The notes: generated from the sequence alone by a model not told the origin. DNA of 64,000 nucleotides from Escherichia coli (GCF_046105845.1 NZ_CP151004.1), one strand, 5' to 3'. Positions 38,018-47,678 are shown, counted from the first letter of the stretch. Translations and numbers: made by a program.

Positions 38018-39595
38018 ATGACGGAAAACATTCATAAGCATCGCATCCTCATTCTGGACTTCGGTTCTCAGTACACTCAACTGGTTGCGCGCCGCGTGCG
38101 TGAACTGGGTGTTTACTGCGAACTGTGGGCGTGGGATGTGACAGAAGCACAAATTCGTGACTTCAACCCAAGCGGCATTATTCTTTCCGGCGGCCCGGAA
38201 AGCACCACCGAAGAAAACAGCCCGCGTGCGCCGCAGTATGTTTTTGAAGCAGGCGTACCGGTATTCGGCGTTTGCTATGGCATGCAGACCATGGCAATGC
38301 AGTTGGGCGGTCACGTTGAAGCCTCTAACGAACGTGAATTTGGCTACGCGCAGGTTGAAGTCGTAAACGACAGCGCACTGGTTCGCGGTATTGAAGATGC
38401 TCTGACCGCAGACGGTAAACCTCTGCTCGATGTCTGGATGAGCCACGGCGATAAAGTTACCGCTATCCCGTCCGACTTCGTCACCGTAGCCAGCACCGAA
38501 AGCTGCCCGTTTGCCATTATGGCTAACGAAGAAAAACGCTTCTATGGCGTACAGTTCCACCCGGAAGTGACTCACACCCGTCAGGGTATGCGCATGCTGG
38601 AGCGTTTTGTGCGTGATATCTGCCAGTGTGAAGCCCTGTGGACGCCAGCGAAAATTATCGACGATGCTGTAGCTCGCATCCGCGAGCAGGTAGGCGACGA
38701 TAAAGTCATCCTCGGCCTCTCTGGTGGTGTGGATTCCTCCGTAACCGCAATGCTGCTGCACCGCGCTATCGGTAAAAACCTGACTTGCGTATTCGTCGAC
38801 AACGGCCTGCTGCGTCTCAACGAAGCAGAGCAGGTTCTGGATATGTTTGGCGATCACTTTGGTCTGAACATTGTTCACGTTCCGGCAGAAGATCGCTTCC
38901 TGTCAGCGTTGGCCGGCGAAAACGATCCGGAAGCAAAACGTAAAATCATCGGGCGCGTTTTCGTTGAAGTATTCGATGAAGAAGCACTGAAACTGGAAGA
39001 CGTGAAGTGGCTGGCGCAGGGCACTATCTACCCTGACGTTATTGAATCTGCCGCATCTGCAACCGGTAAAGCACACGTCATCAAATCTCACCACAACGTG
39101 GGCGGCCTGCCGAAAGAGATGAAGATGGGCCTGGTTGAACCGCTGAAAGAGCTGTTCAAAGACGAAGTGCGTAAGATTGGTCTGGAGCTGGGCCTGCCGT
39201 ACGACATGCTGTACCGTCACCCGTTCCCGGGACCAGGCCTCGGCGTTCGTGTACTGGGCGAAGTGAAGAAAGAGTACTGCGACCTGCTGCGCCGTGCTGA
39301 CGCCATCTTCATTGAAGAACTGCGTAAAGCGGACCTGTACGACAAAGTCAGCCAGGCGTTCACCGTCTTCCTGCCGGTACGTTCCGTTGGTGTAATGGGC
39401 GATGGTCGTAAGTATGACTGGGTTGTTTCTCTGCGTGCTGTCGAAACCATCGACTTTATGACCGCACACTGGGCGCATCTGCCGTACGATTTCCTCGGTC
39501 GCGTTTCCAACCGCATTATCAATGAAGTGAACGGTATTTCCCGCGTGGTGTATGACATCAGCGGCAAGCCGCCAGCTACCATTGAGTGGGAGTGA
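38018..39595 (+). CDS. guaA: GMP synthase (glutamine-hydrolysing)
   Basis: 525 aa; GATase motifs GVCYGMQ, ATP-PPase SGGVDSS; ends ...IEWE. Confidence 0.96.
39581..39595 (+). repeat. left copy of islet-flanking direct repeat (functional guaA 3' end)
   Basis: ATTGAGTGGGAGTGA, 13/15 identical to right copy; encodes IEWE-stop. Confidence 0.75.
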
Positions 39596-39634
39596 GGCTA
39601 TTATTTAAACTATTGTTTTATTTGATTTAGTGAG

Positions 39635-39675
39635 TGCCATTGATGATATTGACTGCATTATCAATGGCATTTTTC
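39635..39675 (+). terminator. islet-borne intrinsic terminator now serving guaA
   Basis: 10-bp stem TGCCATTGAT / ATCAATGGCA with 15-nt loop, followed by TTTTT. Confidence 0.55.
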
Positions 39676-39913
39676 ATGGTATAAGGCCGACGCTGAATCG
39701 AAGATATAGCAAATACCATGTGACCCTATCAGCAAATGCCATGGTATCGACAACCGGGGGCATTGCAGCGCTGTGCTGATGCCATCGATGCCCGCTTTTG
39801 GTCAGAACCGCTCTCTCGACCCAAGCCTCCAGATCGTTAAATATGCGCCAGAGGAGCACCTCGTGATCGAAATTGTGAACAAGACAGCCGCCGCTCGGAA
39901 TCGAAGTATCCAT
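39674..39913 (-). CDS. hypothetical 79-aa ORF inside islet (possible gene remnant)
   Basis: ORF only; no recognisable motifs; Trp-rich; no clear SD. Confidence 0.15.
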   Translation of the reverse strand: MDTSIPSGGCLVHNFDHEVLLWRIFNDLEAWVERAVLTKSGHRWHQHSAAMPPVVDTMAFADRVTWYLLYLRFSVGLIP

Positions 39914-39980
39914 ATGGGTGAATAAAGTTTGCGGAAAACACGCTGAGAAAATAGAAAAGCGTCAATGAAGGGACATAGCA

Positions 39981-41261
39981 ATGGCGATTAACGGAGAGGA
40001 CGGTGTTAGTGCAGTCACCGTGGATGAACTACTCAAGCAAGGCCTTCGGATACCGAACTATCAACGCCCATACAGTTGGGAAGTATCGACCGCTCTACAA
40101 CTGGTGGATGATCTTAGCGAAGCTCTTCGAGATACCGAAAGAAAAGATATTCCCTATGTTTTGGGTGCAATCATTCTTCACGATGATGGTGAGTATCTCA
40201 ATGTAGTCGACGGACAGCAACGTCTGCTGACTTTGCGAATGATTCTTGCGGCCTTAGATCCGATAAATCATCAGATTTCGGTGTCTGGTAACAGCGAAAC
40301 TCCTGTCTCCCTGGTTTGGATAGAGCTTCAAAGGCGCCTGTCGCAGTTGGAAGATAAAAAAGAATTTTTGGATTTTATCTGTCACAAATGTCAGTTGGTG
40401 CGTATTGTGACGGACGATATTGATGAGGCATTTCGTGTCTTTGATTCCCAGAACTATCGCGGCAAACCGCTTGCCCCTCATGACTTGCTCAAAGCACACC
40501 ACCTCCGCGAAATGCACGATGAGTCCGCTGCTATGAAAGTGGCTGTCGTTGAGGCTTGGGAAGCCGTAAATGATGAGGATCTGGACAGGCTTTTTTCTAC
40601 TTTTTTATACCGGATATCCAAGTGGTCACGAGGCGAAAGCTCGCTCGAATTTGCTATTCGGGACATCGGGATGTTTAAGGGAATTTCATCACGATCCCAC
40701 AGATCATTTTCGCCAAATCTGCGATATCACCTTGCAGCACAAGCCGCTATGCCACTTCTAAGTGCATGGGCGGTGTCCTCTACACATGATGCACGAAATG
40801 CCGGGCGCAGCCGCTTTCAGCTTGATGCCCCGATAATCGCTGGGCGCTCATTTTTCGAGATGGTGACATTCATGCTTGACGAATTGAAGATACTGGAAAA
40901 AGAGGTTATCGACAGAGGTTTCAAAAACTTTGGCCCATCTCAAAGTCGCTACCGCTACGTGTACGAATTGTTCATTGCCGCGCTGCTTTGCTATACAAAC
41001 AAGTTTGGCGATGAAGATGTGGATGAAGTGCGAAATAGATTATTCGCATGGGCATATGCCTTGCGGGTCGAGTTACTTCGTGTGCAATTTGTATCTGCTG
41101 ACAACCGAGCTCGAGGTAAAAACGATGCAAATAAATCGCCTTTTGTTTTGCTACGCAACGCGATGACTGGAAGTGTTGTCCGCAAACTTCCAATAGCAAG
41201 TCAGCCATACAACGATAACCACGAAAAGGAACTCGTTGCTTTTATCAAGGGGCTGCAATGA
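39981..41261 (+). CDS. DUF262 (ParB/Srx-like NTP-binding nuclease-family N-terminal domain) protein, no DUF1524
   Basis: Motifs IPNYQRPYSW (40050-40079), DGQQRL (40209-40226), FRVFDSQNYRGKPLAPHDLLKAH; SD AAGGGA upstream; 426 aa. Confidence 0.85.
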   Translation: MAINGEDGVSAVTVDELLKQGLRIPNYQRPYSWEVSTALQLVDDLSEALRDTERKDIPYVLGAIILHDDGEYLNVVDGQQRLLTLRMILAALDPINHQISVSGNSETPVSLVWIELQRRLSQLEDKKEFLDFICHKCQLVRIVTDDIDEAFRVFDSQNYRGKPLAPHDLLKAHHLREMHDESAAMKVAVVEAWEAVNDEDLDRLFSTFLYRISKWSRGESSLEFAIRDIGMFKGISSRSHRSFSPNLRYHLAAQAAMPLLSAWAVSSTHDARNAGRSRFQLDAPIIAGRSFFEMVTFMLDELKILEKEVIDRGFKNFGPSQSRYRYVYELFIAALLCYTNKFGDEDVDEVRNRLFAWAYALRVELLRVQFVSADNRARGKNDANKSPFVLLRNAMTGSVVRKLPIASQPYNDNHEKELVAFIKGLQ

Positions 41262-43210
41262 GCAAGAAGGAGTTGAGACCCGAACTGATAACAGTAGGCA
41301 AGCTATTCACGGGCTATTATCTGATTCCTATTTATCAACGGAACTATGCTTGGCGGGCCGAACAGATTGAGCAACTTATCAGCGATATTCAAGGCTCGGT
41401 GGTTGGGGGCCAGGACGACTATTTTCTTGGGAACCTTGTTGTAATCAAGCGGGGTAGAGAGGACGAGTTCGAGGTCATAGATGGACAACAACGACTTACA
41501 ACCCTCTATCTGCTTCTGACCTTCCTGGAGCAAGACGGTGAGGGTGGGAAGCTGTCGATTGGCCATGCAGGCCACTTGCAATATGAGTCGCGCGCACGGG
41601 CAACGGAAGCCCTGCGGCGAGTAGCACAGGAGGCGGCTAAGGGGCACGTCCGACCGCAGGGCTCCACGAGTAATGCAGATGCTGGCATCCATGAAGGCTA
41701 CAGCATCATCAATCAGTTCTTCAAACAAAATGAAACCCTTAATCGCTCACGCGAAAAATTCTCCGATTTCTTGCTAAAGAAGGTTACTGTCGTCCGTGCC
41801 TCGCTGCCACCCAATACCGACCTCAATCGCTACTTCGAGATCATGAACACTCGTGGGCAGCAACTCAAGCAGGTTGATATTGTTAAGGCTCGCCTGATGA
41901 GCAAGCTGCCCAATCAATATGAACGCGAATGCTTCGCGTGGGTTTGGGATGCCTGTGCTGACATGGATTCTTATGTCCAGATGTCTCTGACCCGTGGTGA
42001 CACCAGTTTACGAAACAAAGTATTTGGCGATGAATGGTCCTGGCTGGAGGTGACCAGCTTCGCGTCGCTAATGGAAAGTCGTCCGCAATCCGACATCAGT
42101 TCATTAAGGCAATCCTCCGAAGGGGTATCGTTGTCCTTGGATGAGGCGTTGTCAAAATACGCTAAAGAGATCGAGTCAAATTCCACTGAAGACGAGGGCA
42201 ACGAGCGGTTTCGTTCGACTATTGAGTTTCCGGCCTTTCTGCTACACGTTCTAAGAATTATGAAAGGCGATGAGGTCGAAGACGAAGGCCAGCTTGACGA
42301 CAAGCGCCTCATCAAGTCATTTGACGACGCCGTAAATAATGTACCCGATGCTAAAGCCGATTGGGTGCGTAGCTTTGCATTTATGCTTCTTAAGTGCCGT
42401 AACCTCTTCGATGGCTTCATCTTGAAGCGTCAATTCACGGCGAACATCGGTGACGATGGCGATTGGTCTCTCCAGCGATTGAAGAAAGGCGGTGCGGACA
42501 AGAAGCCAGCCCCGACGTACATCCATGTTTTCTCGGCCAGCAATGGAAACTTGGAGGAGGACAGCGGTGCTGACCCACATACCCGAGATGTATTGTTGCT
42601 TCAGTCCATGCTTCGGATTACCTACACTTCTCCGCGAACGATGCACTGGATTACCAAAGTTCTTCGCTGGCTATCCGTTAAAGCCCCTCAAGACGCGAAA
42701 CATGCGGATCTTGCCGATTTGTTGAAGGGGTATGCCCGCAGCAAGGTTAAAGAGACATTCCCCTTTGAGGAAGATCAGCAACCACAAGGGTTTGGTATCA
42801 GCCGTATCGTCTTTTCATACCTCGACTATCTTCTGTTGAGTGATTCCTCAAAACGAGATTTCAAATTTCAGTTCAGAACTTCCATTGAGCACTTTTATCC
42901 ACAGCATCCGGACAAAGAACAGTCGGGCGCGGCTGTTTCAGGTTCTAGCCTTAACCTGCTTGGCAACCTCGCGCTCGTAAGCGTCAGCGCGAACTCAAAA
43001 TTCAGCAATAGCCTTCCCAGAGCGAAGGCCGAAAACTTCAAGGATACGATTGAACTTCAAAGTCCCAAGCTCAAGAGAATGGCGGAAATCGCTCGAAATA
43101 CAAGCTGGGACGATCAGCAGATAACAGCACATCATGAAGAGATGGTGACATTGCTTCGTGATGATGTAAGTCTGGTGGAGGCAAGCGGAAGATCCTACCC
43201 GGGGCGTTGA
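41258..43210 (+). CDS. GmrSD-like fusion protein: N-terminal DUF262 + C-terminal DUF1524 (His-Me finger/HNH-like endonuclease)
   Basis: N-term IPIYQRNYAW, DGQQRL (41480-), FEIMNTRGQQL...DIVKARL; C-term SIEHFYPQH (EH at 42887-42892) and LLGNLALVSVSAN; 650 aa; ATGA start/stop overlap with upstream gene. Confidence 0.85.
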   Translation: MSKKELRPELITVGKLFTGYYLIPIYQRNYAWRAEQIEQLISDIQGSVVGGQDDYFLGNLVVIKRGREDEFEVIDGQQRLTTLYLLLTFLEQDGEGGKLSIGHAGHLQYESRARATEALRRVAQEAAKGHVRPQGSTSNADAGIHEGYSIINQFFKQNETLNRSREKFSDFLLKKVTVVRASLPPNTDLNRYFEIMNTRGQQLKQVDIVKARLMSKLPNQYERECFAWVWDACADMDSYVQMSLTRGDTSLRNKVFGDEWSWLEVTSFASLMESRPQSDISSLRQSSEGVSLSLDEALSKYAKEIESNSTEDEGNERFRSTIEFPAFLLHVLRIMKGDEVEDEGQLDDKRLIKSFDDAVNNVPDAKADWVRSFAFMLLKCRNLFDGFILKRQFTANIGDDGDWSLQRLKKGGADKKPAPTYIHVFSASNGNLEEDSGADPHTRDVLLLQSMLRITYTSPRTMHWITKVLRWLSVKAPQDAKHADLADLLKGYARSKVKETFPFEEDQQPQGFGISRIVFSYLDYLLLSDSSKRDFKFQFRTSIEHFYPQHPDKEQSGAAVSGSSLNLLGNLALVSVSANSKFSNSLPRAKAENFKDTIELQSPKLKRMAEIARNTSWDDQQITAHHEEMVTLLRDDVSLVEASGRSYPGR

Positions 43211-43400
43211 CTTCTTTGAATAACCGCTTTTGGACGAAAGTCCCTTGTGGAGTGCAAGTTGTCAGTCTAAAAGCGTTTTGCGTCAGGCGACACGATCAGT
43301 ACAGCTCCCAGGTTTTCTTACCATGGTATTTTGTGTGGTATCGACATGCAAATATAATGCTATTCTATTGATTTTACAGTGTTTTAAGGCGGCATTAATC

Positions 43401-43415
43401 ATCGAGTGGGAATGA
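43401..43415 (+). repeat. right copy of islet-flanking direct repeat (displaced ancestral guaA 3' end)
   Basis: ATCGAGTGGGAATGA; would encode IEWE-stop; immediately followed by the A-tract/hairpin/T-tract terminator. Confidence 0.75.
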
Positions 43416-43436
43416 TTTGACCCTGCACTATGAATG

Positions 43437-43470
43437 AACAAAACCCTCTGTTACTACAGAGGGTTTTTTA
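43437..43470. terminator. bidirectional intrinsic terminator (ancestral guaA / yfgI)
   Basis: AACAAAA-CCCTCTG-ttacta-CAGAGGG-TTTTTT; A-run upstream and T-run downstream. Confidence 0.8.
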
Positions 43471-43507
43471 TCTTCAAGAATTATAGGCTTGAAGTTACTT
43501 ACATCGA

Positions 43508-44047
43508 TTAATTAAACCAGCTGTCCGATTTGTTCTCTTCTGCTTTGCCCACGCTTTTCATCAGATCGCGACCGCCTTCAGTCATATTTCTGTTTGCGTC
43601 AGCTTCAGATTGCACCACATCGGTTTGCGCAGCTTTGTGCTTCAGTTCCTGATCGATAAATTCGTTTTCTCGCTTAACGCGGGCTTCTTCTTTCGCCAGC
43701 GCCAGTTTTTGTTTCTGAATCTCTAAGCTGCGTAGCTCATCTTCATAACTTTGATCGCGTTTTTTGTCCGCAGTGGCTTCGGCATCCAGTTTATCCTGAC
43801 GAGCTTTCTTATTTGCCGCTGCCGTTGCCGCTCTTTTGTTAGCGGCGGCCTGGGCGTTTGCGCGACGTTGCTTCTCTTGCTGGATTTCCCTGTTGCGCTC
43901 CGCGACCCATTCGTCATGCTGCCTTTGCTCTTCATTTTTACCTTGCTGTTCCGCTTCTGCGACAGCAGAGAGTTGATCCTGCAATGATGAGGCGATAGCC
44001 GGATAGCTTAAGGAGGCTAAGATGGCGCAAAGAAAAACTTTCTTCAT
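43508..44047 (-). CDS. yfgI: DUF4223-type periplasmic coiled-coil protein YfgI
   Basis: 179 aa; signal peptide; Lys/Glu/Gln-rich; synteny. Confidence 0.85.
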   Translation of the reverse strand: MKKVFLCAILASLSYPAIASSLQDQLSAVAEAEQQGKNEEQRQHDEWVAERNREIQQEKQRRANAQAAANKRAATAAANKKARQDKLDAEATADKKRDQSYEDELRSLEIQKQKLALAKEEARVKRENEFIDQELKHKAAQTDVVQSEADANRNMTEGGRDLMKSVGKAEENKSDSWFN

Positions 44048-44891: not shown

Positions 44892-45083
44892 CTAACGTTG
44901 TACCGGTGATTCGACGGAGAGTGTGGATTGCTGAGCTTCTTTTTTGCTCTGATGGTGCTGCCATGCACCGACGGACGAGTAGATAAAACGGCCAAAGAAG
45001 AAGATAAAGCTGATGAGCAGTACGATACGGGTCATGCGACTGTTAAATCGGTGTCGTTTTCGCATACTGGTTGCCTGACTCAC
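44892..45083 (-). CDS. yfgG: small membrane protein YfgG
   Basis: 63 aa; basic N-terminus then one TM; synteny. Confidence 0.75.
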   Translation of the reverse strand: MSQATSMRKRHRFNSRMTRIVLLISFIFFFGRFIYSSVGAWQHHQSKKEAQQSTLSVESPVQR

Positions 45084-45434
45084 AAAAGGTTCCTTGAAGT
45101 ATGTCCCACGCTGTGGACGGTACTTACATTAAGGCACAACAGGACAAAATGGTCAATTCTTCGTTATGTAAAAAAGCGTCAGTGGATACATATTTTAATG
45201 TTATGGAAGTTAATTTAATTATTTACAATGATGATGTAATAATGATGAATTAACATGATAAACGTAATAATTCATTAATCAGGGTTATTTTGTTTGATAT
45301 ATATCAATTGGAACTTTCATATGACACTTAGAATCAATGCTCTCTATAGTGATGAATAATCATCATTCGAAGTCAGGTGGGATGCCTGTCTGAATACACC
45401 TCCTTCAGGATGTGGGGGATTCTGCTGAGCATCT

Positions 45435-47678
45435 ATGAAACTGAATGCAACTTATATAAAAATACGTGATAAATGGTGGGGGCTTCCGCTGTTCCTGCCT
45501 TCTTTAATCTTGCCCATTTTCGCCCACATTAATACTTTCGCGCATATTTCTTCCGGTGAGGTTTTTCTCTTTTATCTGCCTCTGGCTCTGATGATCAGCA
45601 TGATGATGTTTTTCAGCTGGGCGGCATTGCCAGGGATCGCCTTAGGGATTTTTGTCCGCAAATATGCAGAGCTGGGTTTTTACGAAACGCTCTCATTAAC
45701 GGCTAATTTTATTATCATTATCATTCTCTGTTGGGGCGGTTACAGGGTCTTTACTCCCCGGCGTAACAACGTTTCACATGGTGATACCCGTTTAATTTCC
45801 CAGCGTATATTCTGGCAGATTGTGTTTCCTGCAACGCTGTTTCTGATACTTTTCCAGTTTGCTGCGTTTGTAGGATTACTGGCGAGCAGAGAAAATCTGG
45901 TCGGCGTCATGCCTTTTAACCTCGGGACCTTAATCAATTATCAGGCCTTACTGGTGGGCAATCTGATTGGTGTCCCGCTGTGCTACTTCATCATTCGGGT
46001 GGTGCGAAATCCGTTTTATTTACGTAGCTATTATTCGCAATTAAAACAGCAGGTTGATGTCAAAGTCACCAAAAAAGAGTTCGCGCTCTGGCTACTGGCA
46101 TTAGGTGCGTTGTTGTTGCTGTTATGCATGCCGTTAAATGAAAAAAGCACAATTTTTAGCACCAATTATACCCTGTCATTATTGCTGCCCCTGATGATGT
46201 GGGGAGCGATGCGCTATGGTTATAAGCTGATTTCGCTGCTCTGGGCGGTCGTGTTGATGATCAGCATCCACAGCTATCAAAATTACATTCCCATTTATCC
46301 TGGCTATACCACACAGCTGACCATAACCTCCTCCAGTTATCTGGTATTCTCTTTTATTGTCAATTATATGGCTGTACTGGCAACCCGTCAGAGAGCGGTA
46401 GTCAGACGCATTCAGCGGCTTGCGTATGTGGACCCGGTGGTTCATCTGCCAAATGTTCGCGCCCTGAATCGCGCGTTGCGTGATGCCCCCTGGTCTGCGC
46501 TTTGTTATTTACGCATCCCTGGCATGGAAATGCTGGTTAAGAACTATGGCATCATGCTGCGGATTCAATACAAGCAAAAACTTTCTCACTGGCTGTCACC
46601 CTTGCTGGAACCGGGTGAGGATGTTTATCAGCTTTCGGGTAACGATCTCGCGCTGCGACTGAATACAGAATCGCACCAGGAGCGCATTACCGAACTGGAT
46701 AGCCATCTCAAGCAATTTCGTTTCTTTTGGGATGGAATGCCGATGCAACCGCAGATTGGCGTCAGTTACTGCTATGTGCGCTCGCCAGTGAATCATATCT
46801 ACCTGTTGCTGGGAGAGCTAAATACGGTCGCCGAGCTTTCCATCGTGACCAACGCCCCGGAAAATATGCAGCGTCGCGGGGCAATGTATTTGCAACGCGA
46901 ATTGAAAGATAAAGTCGCGATGATGAATCGGCTACAGCAGGCGCTGGAACACAACCATTTTTTCCTGATGGCCCAGCCGATTACCGGTATGCGTGGCGAT
47001 GTCTACCATGAAATTCTTCTGCGCATGAAAGGTGAGAATGATGAACTGATCAGCCCCGACAGCTTCTTGCCGGTCGCGCACGAATTTGGTTTATCGTCGA
47101 GTATCGACATGTGGGTCATTGAGCATACGCTGCAATTTATGGCTGAAAACAGAGCGAAGATGCCCGCTCACCGTTTTGCGATTAATCTGTCGCCAACCTC
47201 GGTATGTCAGGCTCGTTTTCCCGTTGAAGTCAGTCAGCTGCTGGCTAAATATCAAATTGAAGCGTGGCAACTTATTTTTGAAGTCACCGAAAGTAATGCT
47301 CTGACAAATGTTAAGCAGGCGCAAATCACCTTGCAGCATCTTCAGGAATTAGGCTGCCAGATTGCGATTGATGATTTCGGCACCGGCTACGCCAGCTATG
47401 CGCGGCTTAAAAATGTGAATGCCGATTTGCTTAAAATTGACGGCAGTTTTATCCGCAATATTGTGTCAAATAGTCTGGATTATCAGATAGTGGCGTCGAT
47501 TTGCCACCTGGCGCGAATGAAGAAAATGCGGGTAGTGGCAGAGTACGTTGAAAACGAAGAGATCCGCGAGGCGGTGCTCTCTTTGGGGATCGATTATATG
47601 CAGGGTTATCTTATTGGTAAGCCGCAACCGTTAATTGATACGCTGAATGAAATCGAACCCATTCGCGAAAGTGCCTGA
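45435..47678 (+). CDS. pdeF: cyclic di-GMP phosphodiesterase (MASE1 - degenerate GGDEF - EAL)
   Basis: 747 aa; N-terminal polytopic membrane domain; C-terminal EAL motifs (DDFGTG, EYVENEE). Confidence 0.9.
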   Translation: MKLNATYIKIRDKWWGLPLFLPSLILPIFAHINTFAHISSGEVFLFYLPLALMISMMMFFSWAALPGIALGIFVRKYAELGFYETLSLTANFIIIIILCWGGYRVFTPRRNNVSHGDTRLISQRIFWQIVFPATLFLILFQFAAFVGLLASRENLVGVMPFNLGTLINYQALLVGNLIGVPLCYFIIRVVRNPFYLRSYYSQLKQQVDVKVTKKEFALWLLALGALLLLLCMPLNEKSTIFSTNYTLSLLLPLMMWGAMRYGYKLISLLWAVVLMISIHSYQNYIPIYPGYTTQLTITSSSYLVFSFIVNYMAVLATRQRAVVRRIQRLAYVDPVVHLPNVRALNRALRDAPWSALCYLRIPGMEMLVKNYGIMLRIQYKQKLSHWLSPLLEPGEDVYQLSGNDLALRLNTESHQERITELDSHLKQFRFFWDGMPMQPQIGVSYCYVRSPVNHIYLLLGELNTVAELSIVTNAPENMQRRGAMYLQRELKDKVAMMNRLQQALEHNHFFLMAQPITGMRGDVYHEILLRMKGENDELISPDSFLPVAHEFGLSSSIDMWVIEHTLQFMAENRAKMPAHRFAINLSPTSVCQARFPVEVSQLLAKYQIEAWQLIFEVTESNALTNVKQAQITLQHLQELGCQIAIDDFGTGYASYARLKNVNADLLKIDGSFIRNIVSNSLDYQIVASICHLARMKKMRVVAEYVENEEIREAVLSLGIDYMQGYLIGKPQPLIDTLNEIEPIRESA

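What the first reader, a model, noticed from the sequence alone, without database searches (positions are those of the whole stretch)
39739..43346. Second short repeat near both islet ends (CCATGGTATCGACA)
CCATGGTATCGACA occurs at 39739-39752, inside the left end and within the 79-aa minus-strand ORF. At the right end the same sequence appears as CCATGGTAT-tttgtgtggtat-CGACA (43321-43346), i.e. with a 12-nt internal insertion, ~55 bp inside the guaA-end repeat. It may be a remnant of inner terminal repeats or a recombination site of the original element, or chance.
Basis: seen in the sequence. Interest (0 to 1): 0.35.

Follow-up and report, generated by a model that had tools for sequence, protein, structure and literature searches.

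The report
Integrase arm sites flanking a defence islet
The short repeat near both ends of the guaA islet is not chance and not a split repeat: it most likely marks the docking sites for a site-specific integrase, on a small integrase-less anti-phage cassette that other mobile elements can move.

Summary
In detail: CCATGGTATCGACA lies at 39739-39752 and CCATGGTAT+12 nt+CGACA at 43321-43346. The "12-nt insertion" reading is wrong. The right end holds two adjacent ATGGTAT-type sites 12 bp apart.

The 3.8-kb islet carries two GmrSD-like genes and no integrase. It sits at the guaA 3' attachment site, bounded by the core GAGTGGGA at 39584 and 43404. That core is used by GIsul2/PIME mobilizable elements, phiV10/epsilon15 phages and a P2-like prophage.

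Fourteen of 14 independent right arms at this site carry the same doublet at -80/-68 (+/-1) from the core. This includes the experimentally recombined GIsul2 attR. The surrounding DNA in these arms is unrelated.

In 67 integrase-proximal arms, CATGGTAT is the top 8-mer and is conserved above its flanks (91% vs 65%). These integrases carry an Arm-DNA-binding domain.

The only two strong doublets in the 64-kb window are at the two islet arms.

The islet occurs solo (52 genomes) or behind other elements (29 genomes) in E. coli. It also occurs at guaA in other Enterobacterales and in 468 plasmids, mostly Klebsiella.

Best reading: integrase arm-type sites on a cis-mobilizable, CIME-like defence islet. 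Binding itself is inferred, not shown. This is a new member of a known kind, of moderate interest.

The parts
39584..39591 (+). attL core GAGTGGGA (crossover region), inside the last codons of guaA. The guaA stop codon at 39593-39595 is supplied by the islet.
   Evidence: Alignment with the empty K-12 site: attB is ...ATTGAGTGGGAATGATTTG, attL is ...ATTGAGTGGGAgTGAggct and attR is ...atcatCGAGTGGGAATGATTTG. GAGTGGGA is the published core of the GIsul2 att sites (PMC9376610). It lies within the proven 17-bp phiV10/ZX5 core (PMC9782041).
39632..39674 (+). Hairpin plus U-run. It is a plausible replacement terminator for guaA brought in by the islet. Its 3' stem overlaps the first arm site.
   Evidence: RNA fold gives -19.1 kcal/mol, z = -3.3. 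phiV10 and the IME family arms have a terminator in the equivalent place. The simple terminator scan missed it because its loop is 9 nt.
39664..39682 (+). Left-arm (P') doublet ATGGCATttttcATGGTAT. It consists of two arm-type-like sites with a 12-bp period, at +80/+92 from the core start.
   Evidence: It is one of only two doublets scoring >=13/14 in the whole window. The second half-site is degenerate (TATGGTTT) in islet lineage L006-L009. The second int-less islet in L110 has the same hairpin+ATGGTAC design.
39713..39720 (-). Left-arm inverted site ATACCATG (CATGGTAT on the minus strand).
   Evidence: Invariant in the seven aligned islet copies (window and L004-L009) and unchanged in the Klebsiella plasmid copy L111. 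The start-to-start distance to the next site is 26 bp. The GIsul2/PIME family P' arm has the same 26-bp spacing for its inverted/direct pair at +191/+217.
39739..39752 (+).
   Evidence: Invariant in the seven aligned islet copies (window and L004-L009) and unchanged in the Klebsiella plasmid copy L111. An intact integrase-bearing IME (L010) has tCATGGTATCGAat at the equivalent P' position. ATGGTATC and CGATACCA are among the commonest 8-mers in 67 family arms.
39981..41261 (+). Cargo gene 1, 426 aa, with GmrSD_N (DUF262) and DUF7834 domains.
   Evidence: Pfam E = 4e-28 and 7e-55. PADLOC gives HEC-06/Orf5/SspE-like partial matches.
41258..43210 (+). Cargo gene 2, 650 aa, with GmrSD_N and GmrSD_C (DUF1524, His-Me nuclease) domains. 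This is a type IV restriction-like protein.
   Evidence: Pfam E = 3e-33 and 1.4e-14.
43321..43346 (+). Its two arm-type-like sites have TGG starts at -80 and -68 from the attR core.
   Evidence: A doublet sits at -80/-68 (+/-1) in 14 of 14 independent P arms at this att site. In the diverged islet lineage the second site reads gtATGGTATCGACA, which is closer to the consensus.
43404..43411 (+). attR core GAGTGGGA. It is followed by the native guaA tail and terminator (43440-43467 plus the T-run).
   Evidence: (repeat D2). In other backbones a different host sequence begins right after this core.

Best explanation
The repeated (C)ATGGTAT(CG) motif is the set of arm-type binding sites in the two arms of an attachment site. 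These arms are attL, which carries the P' arm, and attR, which carries the P arm.

The 3.8-kb islet is bounded by the core GAGTGGGA at the guaA 3' end. It is an integrase-less, att-flanked cassette of the CIME type (cis-mobilizable element). Its cargo is a GmrSD-like type IV restriction gene pair.

The proposed mechanism is as follows. The relevant enzymes are guaA-specific P4-type tyrosine integrases of the GIsul2/PIME family. Each can bind two kinds of DNA site. The C-terminal domains bind and cut at the core. The N-terminal Arm-DNA-binding domain binds the ATGGTAT sites, which lie 68-170 bp away in both arms. This bridging, together with bending proteins and an AlpA-type directionality factor, assembles the recombination complex.

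The islet encodes none of these proteins, so it can only be excised or integrated by an integrase supplied by another element. Alternatively, it moves as the distal module of a composite after another element integrates into its attL (accretion).

Shown here: the site layout, its conservation across unrelated elements, the precise junctions in many backbones, and the tandem arrays. Inferred: that Int (rather than another protein) binds the motif, and that the islet is still mobilizable today.
For: (1) The junctions are a textbook att duplication at the published core. The crossover lies within GAGTGGGA.

(2) P-arm geometry is conserved. A 12-bp-period doublet lies at -80/-68 (+/-1) in 14 of 14 independent arms. 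These are the window islet, GIsul2 attLR and attR, nine other IME-type partners (L007, L008, L009, L097, L099, L100, L101, L105, L109), phiV10 and a P2-like prophage. The arms are otherwise unrelated, at 28-50% in-register identity. Chance per arm is about 6e-4.

(3) P' arms of 67 distinct GIsul2/PIME-type elements from alpha-, beta- and gamma-Proteobacteria were examined. CATGGTAT/ATACCATG is the most frequent 8-mer, with 197 occurrences, and is present in 67 of 67 arms. Motif columns are 91% conserved against 65% for other columns (MWU p = 3e-11). The inverted/direct pair has the same 26-bp spacing as in the islet.

(4) The integrases at this site carry Pfam Arm-DNA-bind_3 (E = 3e-20).

(5) The site 'dialect' differs between integrase sub-types. 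Integrases that are only 53-59% identical use CGGTA instead of TGGTA at the same positions.

(6) In the free phiV10 genome both arms flank the core next to int, and the same 11-mer occurs in both arms.

(7) GIsul2 Int experimentally recombines attL, attLR and attR. It also excises an int-less unit bounded by attLR and attR (PMC9376610). That attR carries a perfect doublet.

(8) Evidence of islet mobility. It is solo in 52 E. coli genomes and in tandem in 29. Its tandem partners are IMEs and a P2-like phage. It sits at guaA in other Enterobacterales, with the host sequence changing exactly after the core. It is present in 468 plasmids as part of a composite.

(9) The only two strong doublets in the 64-kb window are at the islet arms.
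Against: No binding or recombination experiment exists for these sites. The GIsul2 and PIME papers do not mention arm sites.

The experimentally excised CR2-sul2 unit has no ATGGTAT sites to the right of attLR within 400 bp. P' sites on the int-less partner are therefore not strictly required for low-level excision.

The left-arm doublet is degenerate in one islet lineage.

Within E. coli the islet diverges about as much as its flanks, 96-99% against 97-99%. It therefore behaves mostly as a vertically inherited locus there.

The P' site positions in the islet (+80/+92, +130, +155) differ from those of the IME family (+140/147, +172, +191, +217, +287).

No integrase is present in the window.
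Confidence: 0.78

Rival explanations
1. The motif is bound by an accessory factor rather than by the integrase arm-binding domain. The candidates are the AlpA/Xis-type recombination directionality factor or another regulator. The sites would still be part of the att arms, but would control directionality or expression.
For: alpA and luxR are required for PIME excision (preprint 10.64898/2026.01.12.698999). Tandem direct repeats about one helical turn apart in the P arm resemble lambda Xis sites (own knowledge). No experiment assigns the sites to Int.
Against: The same motif occurs in both arms and in both orientations. That is the pattern of Int arm-type sites, not of Xis sites, which in lambda lie only in the P arm (own knowledge). 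The motif dialect changes together with the integrase sub-type at fixed positions. All three integrase types carry a dedicated Arm-DNA-binding domain, which needs such sites (for two of them; the P2-like Int is 55-59% identical over its full length).
Confidence: 0.1
2. The sites are true arm sites by descent, but the islet is now a dead relic. It would be the decayed right-hand end of an old IME, fixed in the chromosome and no longer recombined. The repeats would then be fossils without present function.
For: There is no integrase in the islet or in the window. Divergence of the islet in E. coli is similar to that of its flanks. The left doublet is degenerate in one lineage. An IS element is inserted in the left region in MB15.
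Against: The islet is found with precise core junctions in several different host backbones and on hundreds of plasmids. In GMF054 the islet is 99.9-100% identical to the window copy while the flanks are only 98.3% identical. The right-arm doublet and the 39713 and 39739 sites are intact in every copy seen. A second, different int-less islet has the same arm design.
Confidence: 0.1
3. The repeat is a chance similarity, or a transposon-type inner terminal repeat.
For: The repeat is short, and CCATGG is a palindrome, which inflates repeat and inverted-repeat calls.
Against: Position, period and sequence are conserved in 14 of 14 independent arms. Window-wide statistics argue against chance. The copies are in direct orientation, there is no transposase, and there is no target-site duplication other than the att core.
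Confidence: 0.02

Closest known systems
Arm-type sites of phage lambda attP (P1, P2, P'1-P'3), bound by the N-terminal domain of Int
   Same: Both have several copies of a short consensus that differs from the core. The copies lie in both arms tens to about 150 bp from the crossover, partly as tandem sites about one helical turn apart and partly inverted. The cognate integrases have an arm-binding N-terminal domain.
   Different: The consensus here is (C)ATGGTAT(CG), which differs from lambda's. The integrase is of the P4 type (Arm-DNA-bind_3). The target is the 3' end of guaA. Binding has not been shown. The sites sit on an element that has no integrase.
GIsul2 att sites and the int-less CR2-sul2 unit (PMC9376610)
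   Same: Both use the core GAGTGGGA at the guaA 3' end and have the attL/attLR/attR tandem architecture. An int-less distal module is bounded by attLR and attR. GIsul2's attLR and attR carry the same doublet at -79/-67. The integrase of the islet's tandem partner L010 is 88.6% identical to the GIsul2 Int.
   Different: The cargo is a GmrSD-like defence pair rather than ISCR2-sul2. The islet has P'-type sites on its own left arm, whereas CR2-sul2 has none within 400 bp. The islet also occurs alone at guaA in 52 E. coli genomes.
CIMEs (cis-mobilizable elements) of the ICESt1/ICESt3 type, with tandem accretion (review PMC5704250)
   Same: The islet is flanked by attL and attR of an integrative-element family and has no integration or transfer genes. 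It is found in tandem with incoming integrase-bearing elements and is carried along as part of composites.
   Different: This case is in Proteobacteria at guaA rather than in streptococci at fda or tRNA genes. The partners include phages as well as IMEs. Mobilization has not been tested.
phiV10 / epsilon15 / vB_EcoP_ZX5 attP (PMC9782041)
   Same: Both use the same attachment site and the same arm geometry: a doublet at -80/-68, then core, terminator, P' doublet and int.
   Different: The phage dialect is (GA)CGGTA(T/C), and the phage core identity extends to 17 bp. The islet has the IME dialect TGGTAT and shares only 8 bp of core identity between attL and attR.

Membership tests
Arm-type integrase-binding sites of a heterobivalent tyrosine-integrase att site | Multiple copies of one short consensus, distinct from the core, present in both arms | tested here: met
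   The left arm has copies at 39664-39682, 39713-39720 and 39739-39752. The right arm has copies at 43321-43346.
Arm-type integrase-binding sites of a heterobivalent tyrosine-integrase att site | Fixed position relative to the core, conserved among elements that use related integrases even when the arm sequences are otherwise unrelated | tested here: met
   The doublet is at -80/-68 (+/-1) in 14 of 14 P arms. P' footprints appear in 67 arms.
Arm-type integrase-binding sites of a heterobivalent tyrosine-integrase att site | The cognate integrase has an arm-DNA-binding N-terminal domain | tested here: met
   PF13356 Arm-DNA-bind_3 matches with E = 3e-20 in the IME-type and phiV10-type integrases.
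Arm-type integrase-binding sites of a heterobivalent tyrosine-integrase att site | Direct binding by Int and a requirement for recombination (footprint, EMSA, mutagenesis) | not testable with these tools
   No experiment was found in the searchable literature.
CIME (cis-mobilizable element) | Flanked by attL and attR of an integrative-element family | tested here: met
   The core GAGTGGGA is at 39584 and 43404, and both arms carry family-type sites.
CIME (cis-mobilizable element) | Lacks integrase, excisionase and transfer genes | tested here: met
   The islet holds only two GmrSD-like genes. tblastn with the integrases finds nothing in the islet or in the window.
CIME (cis-mobilizable element) | Occurs in tandem accretion with integrase-bearing elements at the same site | tested here: met
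   Twenty-nine of 81 E. coli genomes have the islet behind another element. The partners include a GIsul2/PIME-like IME, an element with a relaxase gene, a P2-like prophage and a composite on Klebsiella plasmids.
CIME (cis-mobilizable element) | Excision or transfer when an integrase is supplied in cis or in trans | not testable with these tools
   Support is indirect only: precise junctions in several host backbones and experimental excision of the analogous CR2-sul2 unit.
GIsul2/PIME integrative mobilizable element | Encodes int, alpA, repA/repC and trbJ/trbL (or traJ) modules | tested here: not met
   None of these genes is present in the islet. The islet is not an IME; it only shares the att site and the arm dialect.
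   The copies are mainly direct and lie 68-170 bp inside the junctions. There is no transposase. The boundary repeat is the att core.

The most novel reading that the evidence does not exclude
guaA-site islets like this one may form a family of integrase-less cassettes that keep complete integrase-docking arms. They would be shuffled, stacked and exported by whichever guaA-specific integrase is present, whether from an IME, a podovirus or a P2-like phage. Cargo is defence genes in this islet; the cargo of the second islet is uncharacterized. The attachment site would then work somewhat like an integron platform for defence genes. That would explain the islet's spread to other Enterobacterales chromosomes and to hundreds of Klebsiella conjugative plasmids. 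The second, unrelated int-less islet with the same arm design (L110) fits this reading.
Probability: 0.3. Interest if true: 0.55.

Novelty: new member of a known kind. Interest (0 to 1): 0.38.

Why it matters
The analysis gives a concrete, testable map of the attachment site used by a very widespread group of elements. These include the GIsul2/PIME mobilizable islands, which carry sul2 and other resistance genes, the phiV10/epsilon15 phages and P2-like prophages. The map covers the core, the terminator, and arm sites with a fixed -80/-68 doublet. In the papers I could search, only the 8-19 bp core had been described.

The result also identifies a small GmrSD-like anti-phage cassette that has no integrase of its own but keeps both arms. 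The cassette sits alone or stacked with other elements at guaA. It has also reached other species and 468 plasmids, mostly Klebsiella. This is a clear example of how defence genes can hitch-hike on the recombination machinery of other mobile elements.

On the practical side, the doublet plus core is a precise signature. It can be used to delimit guaA-site islands and to recognise int-less modules in tandem arrays.

Tried and rejected
- **Integrase remnant in the islet or window.** tblastn with the IME-type and phage-type integrases found nothing.
- **The 79-aa minus-strand ORF as a gene.** It has no Pfam hit and is frameshifted in variants. Rejected.
- **Structured RNA in the arms.** Rfam gave no match at E <= 1 over 39300-43700.
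- **Promoter scan of the arms.** It returned only chance-level hits.
- **Other GAGTGGGA occurrences as extra att sites.** The copies inside L007 and L009 lie in coding DNA without doublets, so they are chance.
- **Left-arm 24-mer in IMG/VR viral contigs.** Zero hits.
- **An intact element with the islet's own left arm next to an integrase.** None was found in E. coli genomes; the left arm occurs only with the islet.
- **Independent right arms from E. coli hits H36, H37 and H39.** All turned out to be the same phiV10-like prophage type.
- **Naming the non-E. coli hosts of the metagenome copies.** I could only show that guaA is about 88% identical to several genera.
- **Literature search for arm-type sites at guaA.** Nothing was found. 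One further search failed on a term that was too short.
Full report
**Observation**

CCATGGTATCGACA is at 39739-39752 and CCATGGTATTTTGTGTGGTATCGACA at 43321-43346. The gapped pattern occurs twice, against 0.01 expected in shuffles.

Two corrections follow from reading the arms closely.

- The right copy is two neighbouring sites, ccATGGTAT and gtGTGGTATcgaca. Their starts are 12 bp apart, so it is not one site with an insertion.
- The left arm holds more copies. There is a doublet, ATGGCATttttcATGGTAT, at 39664-39682, and an inverted copy, ATACCATG, at 39713-39720.

Four of the six CATGGTAT/ATACCATG occurrences in the window lie in the 355 bp of the two arms (P about 6e-10, post hoc). A scan of the whole window on both strands for the 12-bp-period doublet returns only two hits at >=13/14 matches. 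They are at 39664 and 43323, both on the + strand.

**Context**

The window is E. coli-like: guaB-guaA, then a 3.8-kb insert, then yfgI-yfgH-pdeF. Alignment with the empty K-12 site defines the junctions.

- attB is ...ACCATTGAGTGGGAATGATTTGACC.
- attL is ...ATTGAGTGGGAgTGAggct.
- attR is ...atcatCGAGTGGGAATGATTTGACC.

The crossover therefore lies within GAGTGGGA, at 39584-39591 and 43404-43411.

The insert carries two genes. One is GmrSD_N+DUF7834 (426 aa). The other is GmrSD_N+GmrSD_C (650 aa). Together they form a type IV restriction-like pair.

The insert has no integrase, and neither does the window. The 79-aa minus-strand ORF over the left arm has no family hit and is frameshifted in homologous islets. 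After the guaA stop codon the islet supplies a hairpin plus U-run (-19.1 kcal/mol, z = -3.3).

**The attachment site is a known one**

Most of the 5,426 complete E. coli genomes have the empty site. Seventy-eight carry the islet, and others carry large inserts at the same place. The inserts include:

- phiV10/epsilon15-like prophages with a P4-type integrase next to guaA;
- a GIsul2/PIME-like mobilizable element, and in MB15 an element with a relaxase gene;
- a P2-like prophage.

The 17-bp core attgagtgggaatgatt has been shown experimentally for phiV10, epsilon15 and ZX5 (PMC9782041).

For GIsul2, the integrase recombines attL, an internal attLR and attR. All three share GAGTGGGA. The integrase excises both the island and an integrase-less distal unit, CR2-sul2, bounded by attLR and attR (PMC9376610). 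Neither that paper nor the PIME preprint mentions arm sites.

**The motif is a conserved feature of the arms at this site**

*Right (P) arms.* In genomes where the islet is preceded by another element, an internal core (ATTGAGTGGGAGTGAGG) separates the two. The upstream element's right arm carries the same doublet.

Measured from the core start, the TGG of the two half-sites lies at -80/-68 in the window. It lies at -79/-67 or -80/-68 in L007, L008, L009, L097, L099, L100, L101, L105 and L109, and at GIsul2's attLR and attR. In phiV10 it lies at -80/-68, where the sites read GACGGTAT/AACGGTAC. In the P2-like prophage it lies at -81/-69, reading GACGGTAA twice.

That is 14 of 14 independent arms. 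Their remaining sequence is unrelated, at 28-50% in-register identity. The chance of such a doublet at that position is about 6e-4 per arm.

*Left (P') arms.* I fetched 80 loci with integrases >=87% identical to the E. coli IME integrase. They come from alpha-, beta- and gamma-Proteobacteria.

In the 67 distinct core-to-int arms, the most frequent 8-mer found de novo is CATGGTAT/ATACCATG. It has 197 occurrences and is present in all 67 arms. ATGGTATC comes next.

In the alignment the sites fall at about +140/+147, +172, +191 (inverted), +217 and +287. Motif columns are 91% conserved against 65% for other columns (MWU p = 3e-11).

The inverted/direct pair at +191/+217 has the same 26-bp start-to-start spacing as the islet's pair at +130/+156. 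The intact IME in L010 even reads tCATGGTATCGAat at that position.

*Free attP.* In the free phiV10 genome the two arms flank the core next to int, and the same 11-mer (GGTGACGGTAT) occurs in both arms.

**Why integrase arm-type sites**

- The integrases at this site carry the Pfam Arm-DNA-binding domain (E = 3e-20).
- The motif is in both arms and in both orientations.
- Its sequence 'dialect' differs between integrase sub-types. Integrases that are 53-59% identical use CGGTA instead of TGGTA at fixed positions.

This is the pattern expected of arm-type sites in lambda-like systems (established knowledge). Direct binding is not shown, and an accessory factor such as AlpA remains a rival.

One caveat applies. 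The experimentally excised CR2-sul2 unit has the P doublet at attR but no such sites to the right of attLR. P' sites on the int-less partner are therefore not indispensable for low-level excision.

**What the islet is**

- Of 81 E. coli genomes with the islet's left end, 52 have it directly at guaA. In the other 29 the match starts exactly at the core, meaning another element lies upstream.
- Islet variants keep the right doublet and the 39713 and 39739 sites. One lineage has gtATGGTATCGACA at the second right site, and the left doublet is degenerate in that lineage.
- In E. coli the islet diverges about as much as its flanks. The exception is GMF054, where the islet is 99.9-100% identical to the window but the flanks are only 98.3% identical.
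- Outside E. coli, metagenome contigs show the islet at guaA in other Enterobacterales (guaA about 88% identical). At least six different host sequences begin immediately after the attR core.
- One contig has a second, unrelated integrase-less islet stacked behind the first. It has the same arm design: a hairpin plus ATGGTAC on the left, a doublet at -79/-67, and its own core.
- The complete islet with both arms is present in 468 plasmids, 464 of them from Klebsiella and mostly conjugative IncFIB/IncFII. There it is the distal part of a composite whose right junction, GAGTGGG|taacatagg, is fused to the plasmid backbone.

**Verdict**

The finding is real. It is explained as the arm-type recognition sites of the guaA-specific integrase family, retained on both ends of an integrase-less GmrSD-like defence islet.

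It is wrong in detail: the motif is not the crossover site, not a terminal repeat, and does not contain an insertion.

This is a new member of a known kind. The specific site consensus and the -80/-68 geometry do not appear in the literature I could search, but the principle is textbook. Interest is moderate.

Noticed in passing
L110:545-3060 (metagenome contig Ga0268356_10054, oriented as): A second, different integrase-less islet lies directly behind the GmrSD islet. It has two minus-strand genes of 418 and 99 aa. It has its own hairpin+ATGGTAC left arm, a doublet GGTGGTGTttttcGTGGTAT at -79/-67, and a core gctGAGTGGGAATAA. This suggests a family of such cassettes.
   Followed up: partly
L111:13800-18100 (K. 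pneumoniae plasmid pKP4831-1) and 467 other plasmids: The whole islet with both arms is on 468 plasmids, 464 of them Klebsiella and mostly conjugative IncFIB/IncFII. It sits between the partition genes and umuDC. It forms a composite with an upstream element remnant, and its right junction GAGTGGG|taacatagg is fused to the backbone.
   Followed up: partly
L010:17335-17460; L091:12688-12740; consensus of L011-L090 arms: A second repeated motif, CTGGCA(C), occurs close to the core and again at about +110 in the GIsul2/PIME P' arms. It reads TCTGGCACagGCTGGCAC and GTCTGGCACTGTCTGGCAAC. It also occurs at the CR2 end next to attLR. It is absent from the window's islet, and its role is unknown.
   Followed up: no
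L004:8108-8270 (E. coli F8111-1SC3): After the islet's attR core the sequence is GAGTGGGAATAAACCCTGTA instead of the E. coli tail, and yfgI starts 55 bp further away. A foreign guaA tail may have been co-transferred with the islet.
   Followed up: no
L009:6240-7470 (E. coli MB15): An ISSen4 (IS3 family) copy is inserted in the islet's left non-coding region. The insertion point is just after the equivalent of window position ~39835, downstream of the arm sites. The same IS sequence lies upstream of the islet in the Klebsiella plasmid.
   Followed up: no
L095:413-444 (phiV10 attP P arm): Besides its own CGGTA doublet at -80/-68, phiV10 carries a further doublet of the IME dialect, CATGGCATttttCATGGTAC, at -111/-99. 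This is nearly the same 19-mer as the window's left-arm doublet at 39664-39682.
   Followed up: partly
L096:9414-42900 (E. coli GMF054): A 33-kb P2-like prophage with its own guaA-specific integrase is integrated between guaA and an islet copy that is 99.9-100% identical to the window's. The integrase is 55-59% identical to the other two types. Three kinds of mobile element therefore share this att site and its arm geometry.
   Followed up: yes
window:44550-44850 and 45000-45450: Two AT-rich stretches (27-35% G+C) lie between yfgH and pdeF, around yfgG. They look like ordinary intergenic DNA of this locus.
   Followed up: no
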